DNA of 64,000 bases, from contig NC_043005.1 of assembly GCF_006345805.1 (NCBI RefSeq), positions 24,800,001 through 24,864,000 on the forward strand. The letters run 5' to 3'. The number at the start of each line of letters is the position of its first letter. Position 1 is the first letter of the stretch. This DNA comes from Octopus sinensis (Eukaryota). Position numbers and translations under genes: made by a program. This document shows, piece after piece, positions 1,532 through 54,770 of the stretch. The notes under the pieces are model-generated. The model was not told the origin of the DNA, did no database searches, and saw nothing but the letters and a program-made list of their open reading frames with translations.

Positions 1532-1621
1532 AGCCCGTAATCATCAGGCTGTGGGTTCAATTCCTGGATCAAGCAGTGTGACGTGTCCTTGAGTAAAGCA
1601 CTTTACTTCACATTGCTCCAG

Positions 1622-1622
<1 letters not shown>
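1532..1622 (+). mobile_element. tRNA-derived SINE head fragment
   Basis: B-box-like GGTTCAATTCC followed by GTGTCCTTGAGTAAAGCACTT, as in the related head at 5120-5208. Confidence 0.6.
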
Positions 1623-1652
<30 letters not shown>

Positions 1653-2479
1653 TCCTCCCTTCCTCCTTCCTCTCTCTCTTCTCCCTCCTCTCTCTCTCCC
1701 CATCTCCTTCTTCAATCAGCCGCTAGAATACAGTGATATCGCACTACTTTATCCTTCAAATCCTCCAAGGCACACTGGATATGCAAGTTCATTATATCAT
1801 TAAGACGTGGTGGTCACGGTTGATGTTTTTCGTTATAGGTTTGCTCAGTTAAAGCTAATAAGCAACTAAACAGCAAATACCTGAAAGGTAATCAATACTT
1901 TTAGAAATAGTTTTCTCTTAATGATTAATGTCTGTGTAATGACCTTAAGCTCATAAATCGTGCGCTGATAACCCTCTACTATAACCATATTCTCTAAACT
2001 TGTTTCTGCTGGATCAGGCCGTTGGCAAAAGCCGTGCTGGCGCGTGACAACTGACTCAGCATATCTTTGTTTTTTGTTTGTATTTTTTTTTTCTTGTTTC
2101 TTAAACTTTTCGTAAGCTGAATTGTAGTTTCGCGTACGCGACTCGAGCCCCCAAAATGTGTATATTCCTTTCATACTGATTTAACCAGTCAACCGTAAAT
2201 TTTGTGTTGTTTACCTCAACTGTTCCTCTGGTTATGCTTGACATCATTTTCTCACCCGTATGATGACTCAACAATGGAAACAAAGGAATTCCTGAAGAAA
2301 GAAAGAAAGAAAAAAAGACAAAAAGATAGGAGTTCTGGAATGTTGTAAGAAAATAGACTGAGGATAGATATCAGATCGTGTAGAATTTTAAAAATCGGAC
2401 AGATTTGCCTAATAAAAGCACTTCGACTATGGACCATGTTGCAAATATTTGTCTTTATTTCGTAGGACAACACGTTTAA

Positions 2480-2695
2480 GATATCAGCTCAACGTGTGAA
2501 GTATCTAGGTGGGTACCCGACTTGCTGGAAATAGCAGCCAAATCTCGCTCAAATCATACAAATCCAATTTCTTAGATAAGAGGACACATTGAATTATGTT
2601 AGTCCATTGGATAATTAAGACGTGATGGTCACGGCTGGAATGCTATTCGTTATAGGTTTGCTCGAAGTTGATCTGGAACTAAAGAACAAACACAA
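2480..2695 (+). repeat. Unclassified ~200 bp dispersed repeat (related copies ~1720-1870, 2960-3150, 3190-3400, 9730-10130, 32330-32480, 33340-33530, 61140-61350)
   Basis: Shared degenerate motifs GAAATAGCAG..AAATCTC, GATGGTCACGG(C/T)TGGAA and CCTGGGGCTAAACAAC across copies in both orientations. Confidence 0.6.
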
Positions 2696-2699
2696 TATC

Positions 2700-2940
2700 T
2701 CGATGTTATTATTATTATTATTATTATTATTATCATTATTATTATTATATTATTATTATTATCATTATTATTATTATTATTATTATTATTGTTCAGGTCA
2801 CTGCTTGGAATTGAACTCGGAATCTTGGGGTTAGTAGCCCGCGCTCTTAACCACTACGCTGGGCATATGGCGTAGTGGTAAGAGCGCGGGCTACTAACCC
2901 CAAGATTCCGAGTTCAATTCCAAGCAGCGACCTGAACAAC
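2700..2940. mobile_element. Back-to-back inverted pair of tRNA-like heads of the tRNA-head/hammerhead element
   Basis: 2789-2859 is the reverse complement of 2870-2940 (A-box TGGCGTAGTGG, B-box GAGTTCAATTCC). The left copy continues into (ATT)n...TCGATG, matching 17330-17352. Confidence 0.85.
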
Positions 2941-3665
2941 AACAAAACAAAATATCTATTTTGTTGTTGTTTAGTCTCAGGTCAGCCCTGATCTAAAGCA
3001 TTCTAGCTGTAACTGTCTTGTTTGGTTTTGTACATAAAGGACTACACTATGAATCCTGTGTGCCGTTTTTCTAATCAAGGAATAACTATTTGATAAAGAT
3101 TTGACTGTTATGTCTAACATGTCGATCGACTGTATAGAGGTTCCCTCATTGGCTCGTCCGTTCTGTGTATTGTAATATTGGTGTCATTGTTTAGACCCAG
3201 GTGAATTCTAGTAGACAAACCTATAATCAAAAACGTTCTAGTTATAACCATCTTACCGTTTTATTCAAGCCTTGCGTGTCTGTTATTACGTTATCCATTG
3301 CAGTCTTAAATATCTTTTAAGACAGTAGTATGTGATCTAAAGGAAATTTAACTGCTATTTCTGATAGATCGAGTGTCCATGTAGAGAGAGACTTCTTTGT
3401 TACCGCGTCTGTTATATGATATTACATGACAGTCAATCAGTGTCATTCGACATAGAAGCCACGCTAAGTACGTATTTTCTTTACTATAAATTCATGTACG
3501 TCACCTCACTGTTTAAGTCCTGATTTCATAGTGTTAAACAGGTGAGAGAATCTTCATATTGTCTCTATTTCTAGCTCGGATTTCTAGATTTTTCTGGAAT
3601 CGAATGGTACTTATTACTGTCAGCATCAAGGTGACGTGATTTAATTTTGAGTAAAGATTCTGCAT

Positions 3666-4270
3666 AGGTAATGCAATGCTGGATGGTTTCGCAGTCCAAG
3701 TACGAGATATCAAACGTGTTGCCGTAGTATTTATTTTCTCGTGCTTATATTTCCCCCATACCTCTGCAGCGAGGGTCTATATCTAACGCGCGAGCAAAAA
3801 TAGCCATCTATTTTCTGCAGAGAAACACTACGTCGAATTTTATGGGTAGCTTGACGAACAGATGTCCAGATAGTTATGTACTTGGATAAGCAGACAGATA
3901 GATGGCTATTTTTGCTCGCGTGTTAGATAGATATAGACCCTCGCTGCAGAGGTATGGGGGGAAATATAAGCACGAGAAACGAGATACTTCGGCAACACGT
4001 TTGGGGTCTCGTACTTGGACTTCATCACAAAGGGGCTGTTGTGCGAAACCATCCAGCATTCCATTACCTACCTTGAAGCAGTGTAAAGAAAAAAGAAGAA
4101 AAAAACCAGCTGAGATAGTATGGCCATGTAGCAAGATCCATAGCCTTGCAAAGACCATCCTTCAAGGAACAACGGAGAGGAAAGACGGAGAGAGAGAGGC
4201 GGAAAGAAGAAAATATGAACAGACAAATGAATGGGTAGGAAATCTGGCGCTGCAGATAGATAGAGCTTTG
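3666..4270 (+). mobile_element. RTE-like LINE 3' fragment with inverted duplication
   Basis: Frameshifted ...YGHVAR..SLAKTILQGTTERK...EWVG (RTE C-terminus). 3666-3811 is an inverted copy of ~3898-4070. Confidence 0.7.
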
Positions 4271-4909
4271 CACAGCCCGTCTTGACGCGCCTCTTATGTC
4301 TTCATCAAAAACTGAGGGATCACGGGGAGCGACTTACGCCTTTCTGAATCTCGATGATATTGAATTGTCACTTTTGCTTGTCTCTTTTTAATTGTTTTTT
4401 TTTTTTAATATATAGATTTCAAACACCCCCAGAGGGAGAATTTGTTTTCTAATAATGTCTATGATCAGGTCATCAAGGCTGTTCACTTCACCGTATATAT
4501 GTTGATAGTATGTAAAACGTTCCTCTGAGGCATTTTTTCTCTCAGTTATATAATTGATGTACACATGAACATGGATTGATGGATGGGTAGATGGATACAG
4601 AGGTACATGGACGGATATTTTTGTGGATAAAGTTAACTAGATAAATAGATGGATGGTAAGGTGAATGAATAAATAGTTAGAAGGGTAGATCAGGTGGATG
4701 AATAGATAGAACGATTGAGGGTTGGGTGGGTAGTTTGCTGAATAATAAATGGATTGACGGGTAGAAGAATGGATACGCGGTGAAGTGGTTGGGTAAATAA
4801 ATACAAGATAAGATAGCTTAACATGACAAGCAACCCTCTTTTATAACATAGCATGGCAAGATACCATGTCACTGATTAATATAATAAAAAAAAAAGTAAG
4901 AAAAGAAAA

Positions 4910-5208
4910 TGGCATTCCGTCGGTTAAGACGACGCGGGTAAAGTTGATCTGATCAACGGAACAGCCAGCTCGTGAAATTAACGTGCAGGTGGTTGAGTAC
5001 TCCACAGACACATGTATCTCAGATAGATTCAGCATGACATGGAATGTGACAAGGCTGGCCATTTGAATTACAAGTACAACATTTTTGCCAGCTGAGTGAA
5101 CTGGAACAACTTGAAAGAAGTGTCTTGCTCAAGGACACAATGCGCCACTAGGAATCGAACTCATGACCGTGAACCGAATACCCTGACCACCAAGCCACGT
5201 GCCTCCAC
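4910..5208 (-). mobile_element. tRNA-derived SINE (family B-related tail, different head)
   Basis: Tail shared with 5480-5610; head with B-box GAGTTCGATTCC on the minus strand. Confidence 0.8.
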
Positions 5209-38841: not shown

Positions 38842-40040
38842 AAGCGCTGAGCTGGCAGAACCGTGACCACGCTGGGCGAAATGCTTGGCGGTATTTCGTC
38901 TGCCGTTACGTTCTGAGTTCAAATTCCGCCGAGGTCGACTTTGCCTTTCATCGTTTCGGGGTCGATTAAACAAGTATTAGTTACGCACTGGGGTCGATAT
39001 AATCGACTTAATCCGTTTGTCTGTCCTTGTTCGTCCCCTCTGTGTTTAGGCCCTTTTGGGTAGTAAAGAAATAGGTATTTCATCTGCCGCTACGTTCTGA
39101 GTTTAAATTCCGCCGAGGTCGACTTTGCCTTTCATCCTTTCGGGGTCGATTAAATAAGTACCAATTACGCACTAGGGTGGATATAATCGACTTAATCTGT
39201 TTGTCTGTCCTTGTTCGTCCCCTTTGTGTTTAGCCCCTTGTGGGTAGTAAAGAAATAGAAATAGGTATTTCGTCTGTCTTTATATTCTGAGTTCAAATTC
39301 CGCCGAGGTTGACTTTGCCTTTTTTCATCCTTTCGGGATCGATAAATTAAGTACCTGTTACATACTGGGTCGATTTAATCGACTATCTCCCTCCCCCAAA
39401 TTTCAGGTCTTGTGCCTATGATAGAAGGGATTATTGTTAAGGCGGTGAACCGGCAAAATCGTTAGCACGCCTGAAAACAAAATGCATAGCACCATTTCTT
39501 CTACCTTTTGGATTTGAGTTCAAATTCTGCTGAGGTTGACTTTGTTTTTCATCCTTTTGGGATTGATAAGATAAGGACCAGTTAAGCACTGGGAGTTGAT
39601 GGAGATGACTAGCTCCCCTCCCCTAAATCTCAAGCCTTCTAGCTGGCAGAAACGTTAGCACGCCGGGCAAAATGCTTTGTGGTATTTCGTCCGTCGCTGC
39701 GTTCTGAGTTCAAATTCCGCCGAGGTCGACTTTACCTTTCATCCTTTCGGGGTCGATGAATTAAGTACCAGTTACGCATTGGGGTCGATGTAATCGACTA
39801 GTCTCCTCCTCCCAAACCTGTGCCTTTATAGTAAAAAGGATTATTGTTATTATTATTATCATTATTATTATTAAGGCAGCAAACTGGCAGATTCGTTAGC
39901 ATGCCGGACAAAAGGCTTAGCATTATTTCGTCTGTCTTTACGTTCTGAGTTCAAATTCCGACTAAGCCTTTTATCCTTCTCTGGTCGAGGAAATAAATAC
40001 TAGTTGATTACTGGTCTCGATGCAATCGACTATCCTACTC
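38842..40040 (+). mobile_element. Head-to-tail cluster of SINE family A (trimer 38842-39430 plus copies at 39441, 39641, 39874)
   Basis: Six body units in the same orientation. Confidence 0.9.
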
Positions 40041-45988: not shown

Positions 45989-46109
45989 TTATATTTAAGA
46001 GATGAGGAATTATGTACATTATTTACATTTGACGATATTTGTCCTCATCTTGTTTCGCGTAGTGGTTAAGAGCGCGGGCTACAAACTCCAAGATTCCGAG
46101 TTCGATTCC

Positions 46110-46140
<31 letters not shown>

Positions 46141-46266
46141 TCAAAAAATACCTTAGGAATGAGGAATTATGTACATTATTTACATTTGACGATATTTGTC
46201 CTCATCTTGTTTCGCGTAGTGGTTAAGAGCGCGGGCTACAAACTCCAAGATTCCGAGTTCGATTCC

Positions 46267-46300
<34 letters not shown>

Positions 46301-46440
46301 TCAAAAAATACCTTAGGAATGAGAATCCAGGTTCGAAATTTTCCCAAGACACCTGATGAAGGCTGGAGGGTATATCAGCTGAAACGTTGTGTTAACAACA
46401 AACAAGATGAGGACAAATATCCGTCAAATGTAAATAATAT
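45989..46440 (+). mobile_element. tRNA-head/hammerhead element with inverted tail and an internal ~157 bp tandem duplication
   Basis: [inverted tail + tRNA head + (AAT)n] x2, then HHR and tail; AGTTGATA on both flanks (possible TSD). Confidence 0.85.
46348..46393 (+). ncRNA. Minimal type I hammerhead ribozyme motif (PLE-type)
   Basis: GACAC-CTGATGA-A-GGCTG[GAGGGTATAT]CAGCT-GAAA-CGT-T-GTGTT: stem I GACAC/GTGTT, 5-bp stem II, loop-less palindromic stem III. Confidence 0.75.
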
Positions 46441-53270: not shown

Positions 53271-53943
53271 AAATTTATATACATTAGACATACATCTGAA
53301 TACATACACAGATAAGCACACAGACATTCTATCTATCTGTCTGTCTGTCTGTCTATGATGGCTCTACTCTATACTGTTTTCTCCTATCGTTTTCTCTCTC
53401 ATCCATTCTCTAATTCCTTTTTCTCTTCATTGTTTTCTATCTCTCTCTCCCTCTTTCTCATTTACACTCTCGTTGCTCACACGTGATCATCGTCCATCTT
53501 TCTTTTCCTCACTTGATCCGCTTTTTCTTTCAGGGCTGTCCTAAAGACTGGACGTAACCTGTCTCTCTCTTCTTACTTTTCTCTTGTCAAAGAAAATATT
53601 TCTCCAGCGTTCGCTATTTTACCCTCATTCTGGTCTAACGACCCTCCATGTTCGTTTTCGTTCGGTTTCCTTGTATGTCTCCACTGTCCTGTTTTTGTTC
53701 CTAACTTTCACCTCCATAAATCCCCTATTTATTTTGGTACTTATGGGAGCAACTATCTTCGAAGACTCATATTGTCGTTCAGTGTCCGAAATGAGGAGTA
53801 GATAGACAGCCGACAACTAATGAAGGGTCGTTCTTTAATTTACTTGTCTTGTTTTCCATTTGTTTCTCTCGTTTGCGTATTGAACTTATTTCTTTTCGCA
53901 TTTTATGTTGTTTACTGTTGGTGACGTCCTATACCCATATATA

Positions 53944-54018
<75 letters not shown>

Positions 54019-54192
54019 ATATATAGAGTAGTCGTACAACGAAGCACCATTGTTTACTGAAAATAGCAGTCGATGCATTTACGATGTCATAGTAAAGCTT
54101 CAATGTGTGAAGACGTGTGAGGGCAGCAAACAAAAAAAAAATTGTCTGTTCTCTTGGAAGAACATTATAAAAATGGACAACCAGAATCGGAT

Positions 54193-54267
54193 AATCCAGT
54201 ACCTAGGTTTCAGACTCTTCAAATACGTTTGTTATCATAAATTTGATTAGTCTTCATCAGCTGGATT
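54193..54267 (-). ncRNA. Canonical type I hammerhead ribozyme (intact core)
   Basis: Minus strand AAUCCAG-CUGAUGA-AGACU[32 nt incl. UCAAAU/AUUUGA]AGUCU-GAAA-C-CUAG-G-UA-CUGGAUU: 7-bp stem I, 5-bp stem II, stem III with palindromic CUAG loop, GUA cleavage triplet. Confidence 0.88.
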
Positions 54268-54538
54268 TACCTGGACAATATTTCAAATGTTGCTACATCA
54301 ATGCCAGTATACTCGCCTGAACACTTAGCCGTTAATAGACCGAGAACAGCGAAAATATTTTCAATGAAGAGTAAAATATTGCAATACAAATGTATTACTT
54401 TCCAGTAAAATAATGCACCGTAAAGGTAGAAGTATAAATATAGAGTAGTGGTACAACACACATCTATCCATATACGCATACATACAAACAGATAAGTATA
54501 TATGTGTGTGTGTGTGTGTGTGTGCATATATTATATAT

Positions 54539-54770
54539 ATTTCTTTACTACCCACAAGGGGCTAAACATAGAGGGGACAAACAAAGACAGACAAAGGGAT
54601 TAAGTTGATTACATCGACCCCAGTGCAGAACTGGTACTTAATTTATCGACCCCAAAAAGAATGAAAGGCAAAGTCGACCTCGGCGGAATTTGAACTCAGA
54701 ATGTAACGACAGACGAAATACGGCTACGCATTTCGCCCGGCGTGCTAACGTTTCTGCCAGCTCGCCGCCC
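54539..54770 (-). mobile_element. SINE family A (monomeric)
   Basis: Consensus match; TSD CATATATTATATATA. Confidence 0.92.

What the first reader, a model, noticed from the sequence alone, without database searches (positions are those of the whole stretch)
54193..54267. Apparently intact canonical type I hammerhead ribozyme
Seen: all conserved core nucleotides are present (CUGAUGA, GAAA, GUA triplet), with a perfect 7-bp stem I (AAUCCAG/CUGGAUU), a 5-bp stem II extended by UCAAAU/AUUUGA, and a 2-bp stem III closed by the palindromic loop CUAG. Predicted cleavage lies between 54200 and 54199 on the minus strand. Established: a short stem III with a palindromic loop is the hallmark of PLE/retrozyme HHRs that work as dimers. 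Its flanks differ from the other HHR families here, so it is a separate family. Inference: if it lies within a transcribed intron it could cleave the pre-mRNA.
Basis: partly seen in the sequence, partly recalled or inferred. Interest (0 to 1): 0.8.

Follow-up and report, generated by a model that had tools for sequence, protein, structure and literature searches.

The report
Hammerhead in a Penelope-type mini-retroelement
This is a real hammerhead self-cutting RNA motif, but it sits in one old, solitary copy of a short repeat scattered through the genome, a repeat that likely hitchhikes on Penelope-like jumping genes, so it is a new member of a known kind and this copy is predicted to cut itself poorly.

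Summary
Observation confirmed: a type I hammerhead on the minus strand with complete core, GUA triplet and cut site 54200/54199 (0 hits in 60 shuffles). It lies in a non-coding 417-nt unit plus 26-nt terminal repeat (54458-54016) ending in (TA)n. The unit is a dispersed family (1223 first-look candidates) with fixed 3' ends, variable 5' truncation, head-to-tail partial tandems and inverted arms: Penelope-like (PLE) insertion anatomy without an ORF, i.e. a non-LTR retrozyme. Stems I and II covary among 119 distinct copies. Folding predicts helix III at 2-4% in a monomer and a double hammerhead for two copies. This copy is solitary, about 6% diverged, has A-U instead of the usual G10.1-C11.1, and an intact core is common (26 of 40 copies). 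No host exon was found, so the intron idea is unsupported. Autonomous GIY-YIG PLEs exist in the genome, but none of 50 loci checked shares the sequence. The scan noted similar PLE hammerheads in other genomes. Mildly interesting: younger subfamilies shortened loop III and lost the 10.1-11.1 pair.

The parts
54016..54458 (-). Whole insertion: one 417-nt unit (54458-54042) of a non-coding hammerhead-bearing repeat plus a 26-nt repeat of the unit start
   Evidence: Boundaries from blast against 29 other copies and self-match e2-26/e419-443; longest stop-free frame 72 codons
54193..54267 (-). Type I hammerhead: stem I, CUGAUGA, stem II with extension, GAAA, 2-bp stem III, GUA
   Evidence: covariation
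54201..54208 (-). 8-nt palindrome forming helix III: 2 bp plus tetraloop in a monomer, 8 bp between two hammerheads
   Evidence: Sequence; cofold MFE; 6-nt palindrome kept after a 2-nt deletion in the young subfamily
54199..54200 (-). Predicted cleavage site, 3' of A17 (54200)
   Evidence: Hammerhead consensus geometry (established knowledge); not assayed
54181..54274 (-). Outer helix Ib (54274-54270 with 54185-54181) closing internal loop 1
   Evidence: 91% of cells paired; one pair C-G 45, U-G 33, U-A 25; probability 0.62 in the 105-nt fold, 0.0 in longer contexts
54433..54458 (-). 5' copy of the 26-nt terminal repeat (unit start)
54016..54041 (-). 3' copy of the terminal repeat, running into the (TA)n target; the family's fixed 3' end
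   Evidence: 167 of 243 profile hits end at model position 420 or later
53937..54025 (.). (TA)n microsatellite, the inferred insertion target
   Evidence: 66 of 160 copies with the end motif have (TA)n within 30 nt, 14 a short TATA, 14 (TC)n, 55 run into the next unit, 11 other

Best explanation
The hammerhead lies in one old, solitary copy of a roughly 430-nt non-coding repeat family that is likely a non-autonomous Penelope-like element (non-LTR retrozyme), likely copied into (TA)n tracts by the reverse transcriptase and GIY-YIG endonuclease of autonomous Neptune-type elements. Likely cycle: a tandem source copy is transcribed; two hammerheads pair through the helix III palindrome and cut out unit-length RNA (inferred); that RNA is religated or stays multimeric; the helper enzyme primes at the unit's fixed 3' end in a nicked (TA)n tract and copies a variable length, often more than one unit and sometimes with an inverted arm (anatomy shown, enzymes inferred). 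Selection kept the ribozyme in the successive source copies. Landed copies such as this one decay neutrally. With a single hammerhead, this copy is predicted to cleave weakly, if it is transcribed at all.
For: Family: 40 of 40 scored candidates match at 84-100% over most of the query, of 1223 candidates; exact patterns give 60, 127, 142, 54 and 207 hits with 0 in each reversed control. PLE anatomy: fixed 3' end, (TA)n/(TC)n targets, spread 5' ends; head-to-tail dimers (L193, L221, L224, L225, L273, L286, L289) and inverted 5'-truncated arms. This matches the passages on pLTRs, inverted copies, tails and (TA)n targets in PMC8557442. No ORF. Helpers present: 5029 GIY-YIG candidates, 150 scored; 775-781-codon RT + GIY-YIG frames with the Neptune/Nematis-type Cys linker; these elements also end at (TA)n and repeat a short end motif at their 5' start. 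One locus has the element joined directly to a 5'-truncated PLE on the same strand (L241), as a template switch would give. Ribozyme selection: 90.8% of cells paired, 179 double-change cells against 72.5 shuffled, 0 of 500; swaps C-G/U-A and C-G/G-C in stem I, G-C/A-U in stem II; core 11 of 319 letters off the commonest against 208 of 2459 elsewhere in the aligned stretch. Dimer: cofold -51.8 against 2 x -19.9 kcal/mol. Age: ladder-like tree, end branch 0.06 for this copy and 0.02-0.03 for the youngest clade; best other copy 89.5-91%.
Against: No helper sharing the unit's sequence was found: 0 of 50 PLE loci hit by blastn or by a profile, out of thousands of candidates. The L241 junction is one case and could be a later deletion or chance, since 10 of 227 element-centred loci (duplicates included) have PLE fragments within 1.5 kb. 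Covariation cells count sequences; the tree suggests only a handful of independent swaps, and many rows were picked by patterns covering the 3' strand of stem I. The family does not keep the 10.1-11.1 pair (61 of 119 unpaired), and in the old subfamily only 10 of 38 cores are intact, often with U4C, so catalysis may be weak or dispensable. The circular unit folds no better than shuffles in a clear way (z -1.5), whereas retrozyme circles are described as highly self-paired. Cleavage and circles were not shown.
Confidence: 0.85

Rival explanations
1. The repeat is only the 3' end (pseudo-LTR) of an autonomous Penelope-like element, left behind by 5' truncation, and not a self-standing non-autonomous unit.
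For: Same end anatomy as the autonomous elements; PLE 3' ends carry hammerheads (PMC4209133); only 50 PLE loci were checked.
Against: 93 of 243 hits start at the unit's first 20 positions, and what lies upstream is the unit's own 3' end or unrelated flank. Full and partial dimers have a period of about 410-450 nt. No copy runs upstream into a PLE frame: in the 6 loci extended and in L267/L281 the PLE fragment lies downstream, on the other strand, or 1.2 kb upstream behind the element's own inverted arm.
Confidence: 0.07
2. This copy is a working, possibly domesticated intronic ribozyme that cuts a host pre-mRNA, like the amniote HH9/HH10 ribozymes.
For: It is one of 6 of 57 copies with intact core and all 7+5+2 pairs; HH9 is the best hammerhead model; GUA is a natural, active triplet (PMC1636495); host introns can be long, so a gene could span the region unseen.
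Against: No exon evidence in 184 kb (short exons would be missed). Solitary hammerhead with predicted active fold about 1%. Divergence of 6% leaves the core intact in most copies anyway. Of 130 contig records laid from four runs guessed to be RNA, 13 are 99% or more alike, none of the listed ones spans this hammerhead at that level, and the deep variants carry the young subfamily's letters.
Confidence: 0.05
3. The repeat spreads at the DNA level (satellite or miniature DNA transposon) and the hammerhead is a passenger.
For: Short tandem arrays and inverted arms exist.
Against: Polar anatomy (fixed 3' end, graded 5' truncation), dispersal over all large contigs, inverted arms at variable positions, and compensatory changes in the ribozyme stems.
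Confidence: 0.03

Closest known systems
Metazoan non-LTR retrozymes (Cervera and de la Pena 2020, PMC7229834; mussel 350-390 nt, axolotl HHR_Amex1/Amex2; bioRxiv 10.64898/2026.07.22.740005)
   Same: Non-coding 150-450-nt unit with one type I hammerhead; monomers, dimers and short arrays; weak palindromic helix III; coexists with autonomous PLEs. Axolotl Amex2 also has a mismatch at the base of stem II and cleaves much better as a dimer.
   Different: Mostly dispersed monomers and truncated copies, with clear PLE insertion marks; long stem II with an internal loop instead of a terminal loop 2; circular RNA not shown; weak self-pairing of the circle (z -1.5).
Hammerheads in pLTRs of EN+ Penelope-like elements (Cervera and de la Pena 2014, PMC4209133) and Neptune-clade insertions (Craig et al. 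2021, PMC8557442)
   Same: Hammerhead in sense orientation near a fixed 3' end, small palindromic helix III, long helix II, (TA)n targets, partial tandems, inverted truncated arms, short tail.
   Different: No ORF; 7-bp helix I with an outer helix, closer to canonical type I; G10.1-C11.1 lost in the middle and young subfamilies; no autonomous partner identified.
Amniote intronic hammerheads, Rfam HH9 (RF02275) (review PMC6155905)
   Same: Type I topology; model aligns 1-77 of 77.
   Different: 26.3 bits against a cut-off of 52; high-copy mobile repeat rather than a conserved single-copy intronic motif.

Membership tests
Type I hammerhead ribozyme | Core CUGANGA, GAAA, UH | tested here: met
Type I hammerhead ribozyme | Three helices around the core, helix I open | tested here: met
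   Helices I and II probability above 0.9; helix III can form but only 0.02-0.04 in a monomer
Type I hammerhead ribozyme | Compensatory changes among relatives | tested here: met
   12 of 27 pairs with changes on both sides; 179 cells against 72.5 shuffled; few independent events
Type I hammerhead ribozyme | Quasi-conserved G10.1-C11.1 pair (typical, not absolute) | tested here: not met
   A-U here; G-C in 24 of 38 old-subfamily copies; A.C, A-U or A.A in middle and young ones
Type I hammerhead ribozyme | Loop 1-loop 2 tertiary contact | tested here: inconclusive
   Internal loop 1 and an internal loop on stem II exist; no contact was modelled
Type I hammerhead ribozyme | Site-specific self-cleavage | not testable with these tools
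   Needs an assay; the genomic 5'-end test was inconclusive
Rfam HH9 (RF02275) | Score at or above gathering threshold | tested here: not met
   26.3 against 52 bits
Non-LTR retrozyme | Non-coding unit of 150-450 nt with a type I hammerhead | tested here: met
   417-nt unit, longest stop-free frame 72 codons
Non-LTR retrozyme | Head-to-tail tandem copies | tested here: met
   Dimers in the family; this locus is a monomer
Non-LTR retrozyme | Accumulates as linear and circular unit-length RNA | tested here: inconclusive
   Contigs of runs guessed to be RNA hold family members and cross the unit junction; contigs cannot tell circle from tandem, nor strand
Non-LTR retrozyme | Target-site duplication, no PBS/PPT | not tested
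   Microsatellite flanks hide duplications; PBS/PPT not searched
Penelope-like element, non-autonomous | Fixed 3' end, 5' truncation, partial tandem, inverted arm, tail, microsatellite target | tested here: met
Penelope-like element, non-autonomous | 3' end similar to an autonomous partner | tested here: inconclusive
   0 of 50 PLE loci match; thousands unchecked
Penelope-like element, autonomous | RT + GIY-YIG ORF | tested here: not met
   No tblastn hit in the window; no contiguous ORF in the copies examined
Domesticated intronic hammerhead | Inside a host intron and conserved at the orthologous locus | tested here: inconclusive
   No exon found in 184 kb; orthologues not examined

The most novel reading that the evidence does not exclude
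A cephalopod retrozyme lineage that is still transcribed and, over successive source copies, evolved an ever weaker hammerhead (G10.1-C11.1 replaced by A.C or A.A, loop III cut from four to two nucleotides with the palindrome kept) so that it cuts only as a dimer. Its dated subfamilies would be a natural series for testing how much catalysis a PLE-borne RNA needs, and copies starting at the cut site would be genomic fossils of cleavage in vivo.
Probability: 0.3. Interest if true: 0.5.

Novelty: new member of a known kind. Interest (0 to 1): 0.27.

Why it matters
Hammerheads in PLE-derived repeats are known from many invertebrates, molluscs included, so this is an expected kind of object. Four searches ('hammerhead ribozyme'+'octopus'; 13; 49; 50 'cephalopod'+'ribozyme'+'self-cleaving') listed no paper describing this family by title or abstract, but I could not check Repbase, Dfam or supplements. 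Its value is as a test set: the role of the hammerhead in PLE transposition is described as unclear (PMC8557442), and this family offers three dated subfamilies with natural core-adjacent variants and a helper-rich genome. The single copy flagged matters little.

Tried and rejected
(1) Cleavage fossil. 3 of 66 true 5' ends lie exactly at cut site +1 (P 0.003 against uniform, 0.055 once TA microhomology is allowed), and a targeted pattern gave one more locus. But other TA-rich positions score as high (-97: 4; -101: 3), all cases have TA just upstream, and their nearest relatives lean to the GUA lineage, where TA is the element's own sequence. Not counted as evidence. (2) Helper search: blastn and a profile against 50 PLE loci found nothing; patterns at the unit start and 3' end found no ORF-linked copy. 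(3) Expression: no RNA holder listed; contig depth falls near the cut site, but loose ends show alignment clipping, and contigs cannot show ends. (4) Host gene: 94 of 513 candidate frames plus a few others scanned, no host domain. (5) Rfam Hammerhead_1 genome search scored 74 candidates; its top 20 loci are other families. (6) miRNA-family Rfam hits near the locus are microsatellite artefacts. (7) No usable kinetic figure for A10.1-U11.1 found. (8) No earlier notes on this genome.

Full report
1. Observation. A strict descriptor gives this one hit in the window and none in 60 shuffled windows. Rfam HH9 aligns end to end at 26.3 bits, under its cut-off of 52; no family reaches its cut-off in the window. 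The first stem II pair is A-U rather than G-C. An outer helix extends stem I.

2. Context. The window is from a 2.72-Gb genome. I take it to be an octopus-like cephalopod from recall of its size and repeats; no call names it. The hammerhead sits in a repeat: 1223 first-look candidates, 40 scored, 84-100% identical over most of the 321-nt query. Comparison with 29 other copies sets the element at 54458-54016: a 417-nt unit followed by a 26-nt repeat of its start, then (TA)n. It has no frame above 72 codons. Among 243 distinct profile hits in the loci held, 167 end at the same 3' point, while 5' ends are spread. Of 160 with the end motif, 66 are followed by (TA)n, 14 by a short TATA, 14 by (TC)n, 55 run into the next unit and 11 are other. 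Head-to-tail dimers and inverted truncated arms are frequent. These are the marks of Penelope-like insertions as described in PMC8557442 (passages).

3. Helpers. The genome has many GIY-YIG elements (5029 candidates, 150 scored), some with intact 775-781-codon RT + GIY-YIG frames and the Cys linker of the Neptune/Nematis clades. They end at (TA)n and repeat a short end motif at their start, as our unit does. None of 50 such loci shares sequence with the unit. Ten of 227 element-centred loci (duplicates included) have PLE fragments nearby; none of those examined is contiguous upstream, and one is a direct in-line fusion downstream of an element fragment. So the element is non-autonomous and its partner is unidentified.

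4. Selection on the ribozyme. I aligned 121 of 130 copies covering the hammerhead, dropping 9 that were partial, misaligned, carried a local duplication or were near-duplicates. With the named structure, 90.8% of cells pair and 179 show double changes against 72.5 in shuffles (0 of 500); slid controls pair 17-42%. The informative swaps are C-G/U-A and C-G/G-C in stem I, G-C/A-U in stem II and C-G/U-A in the outer helix. They amount to a few inherited events, and many rows were picked by patterns covering the 3' strand. In 29 middle-subfamily rows picked without a hammerhead pattern, the core departs from the commonest letter at 11 of 319 positions against 208 of 2459 elsewhere. A tree of 98 long copies is ladder-like, midpoint-rooted for drawing only: one subfamily has end branches near 0.07-0.13, the group holding this copy 0.05-0.09 (this copy 0.06), and the youngest clade 0.02-0.03. 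Along it, 10.1-11.1 goes from G-C (24 of 38) to A.C, A-U or A.A, and loop III loses its two central bases, staying palindromic. Cores are intact in 10 of 38, 30 of 49 and 30 of 34 copies of the three groups, assigned by my own column rule.

5. Mechanism. Folding gives stems I and II at probability above 0.9 but helix III at 0.02-0.04, with loop III pairing to the core instead; the active monomer fold is about 1% in four contexts. Two copies fold to the double hammerhead with an 8-bp helix III, -51.8 against 2 x -19.9 kcal/mol; 96 of 121 rows do the same. Nearest-neighbour models ignore tertiary contacts, and coral and mussel monomers do cleave (PMC7229834, parts 2-3 read), so weak monomer activity is predicted, not shown. 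The axolotl Amex2 hammerhead, with a 2-bp helix III and a mismatch at the base of stem II, cut 22% in an hour as a monomer and far better as a dimer (same paper), the closest precedent. I infer the cycle proposed in PMC4209133 (parts 1-2 read): tandem transcript, dimer cleavage, religation or multimer, reverse transcription by a PLE from the fixed 3' end. Most copies read through the cut site (107 of 112 extend upstream of it), so templates were uncut or religated. An apparent excess of 5' ends at the cut site did not survive the microhomology control.

6. This copy. It is a monomer with one hammerhead; the nearest family fragment found is about 77 kb away. It is one of the better-preserved copies (6 of 57 with all pairs and core), but an intact core is the norm (26 of 40). 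In 184 kb no host exon was seen: 94 frames scanned gave 3 weak transposon-type Pfam hits; short exons would be missed. Contigs from four runs guessed to be RNA hold family members, mostly under 95% alike, with the young subfamily's letters at the greatest depth, and some cross the unit junction. That fits transcription of the family, not of this copy, and cannot show strand, ends or circles.

7. Comparison and novelty. It works like a dimer-type type I hammerhead of a non-LTR retrozyme and meets the sequence-level tests for that class; circles and cleavage are untested. A 2026 preprint argues that such retrozymes are non-autonomous PLE derivatives (10.64898/2026.07.22.740005; part 1 and passages read; no mention of octopus or molluscs in its main text; supplements closed). 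It is not an HH9 member. Other papers: PMC6155905, PMC1636495, PMC544870 and PMC8967140, passages only. Searches listed no description of this family; repeat databases were not available. Earlier scan notes report similar PLE hammerheads in other genomes; they did not change my reading.

8. Verdict. Real motif, right family guess, unsupported intron inference. New member of a known kind; interest 0.27. The subfamily series is the part worth a bench test.

Noticed in passing
L091:174-1610 and 1532-3874 (+); also L093, L094: A young GIY-YIG PLE family (about 98-99% identical copies) has a 479-codon upstream frame without Pfam match overlapping the 781-codon RT-EN frame in the -1 frame. PMC8557442's figure legend mentions frameshifted ORF1 in some PLE types; I did not see which clades.
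   Followed up: partly
L091 about 4860-4910 (+): Near that family's 3' end is a hammerhead-like motif with U3 and A8 in place of C3-G8, the covariant core described for Schistosoma Cercyon in PMC4209133.
   Followed up: no
L064, L069, L093, L097, L108, L141-L160: At least five other hammerhead families in this genome, most with a 2-bp helix III and a different palindromic tetraloop; 8 of 74 scored candidates pass the Hammerhead_1 cut-off.
   Followed up: partly
window 46343-46402 (+): Second hammerhead in the window, with a bulged A before stem II and a minimal helix III, at the end of the 157-nt tandem 46002-46323; unrelated to this family.
   Followed up: partly
L234:7130-7331 (-), about 77 kb from this copy: A decayed fragment of the old subfamily of the same element.
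   Followed up: no
L241:3225-3489 joined to 3487-4790 (+): Element fragment fused in line to a 5'-truncated, decayed PLE; possible template-switch chimera.
   Followed up: partly
family-wide, about 96-101 nt upstream of the cut site: Hot spot of 5' truncation (7 of 66 ends in a 3-nt window), probably TA microhomology.
   Followed up: no
window 54525-54770 (-): A very common unrelated short repeat (SINE-like by recall) just upstream of the element; found in many loci and as tandem arrays at 38890 and 47595.
   Followed up: no
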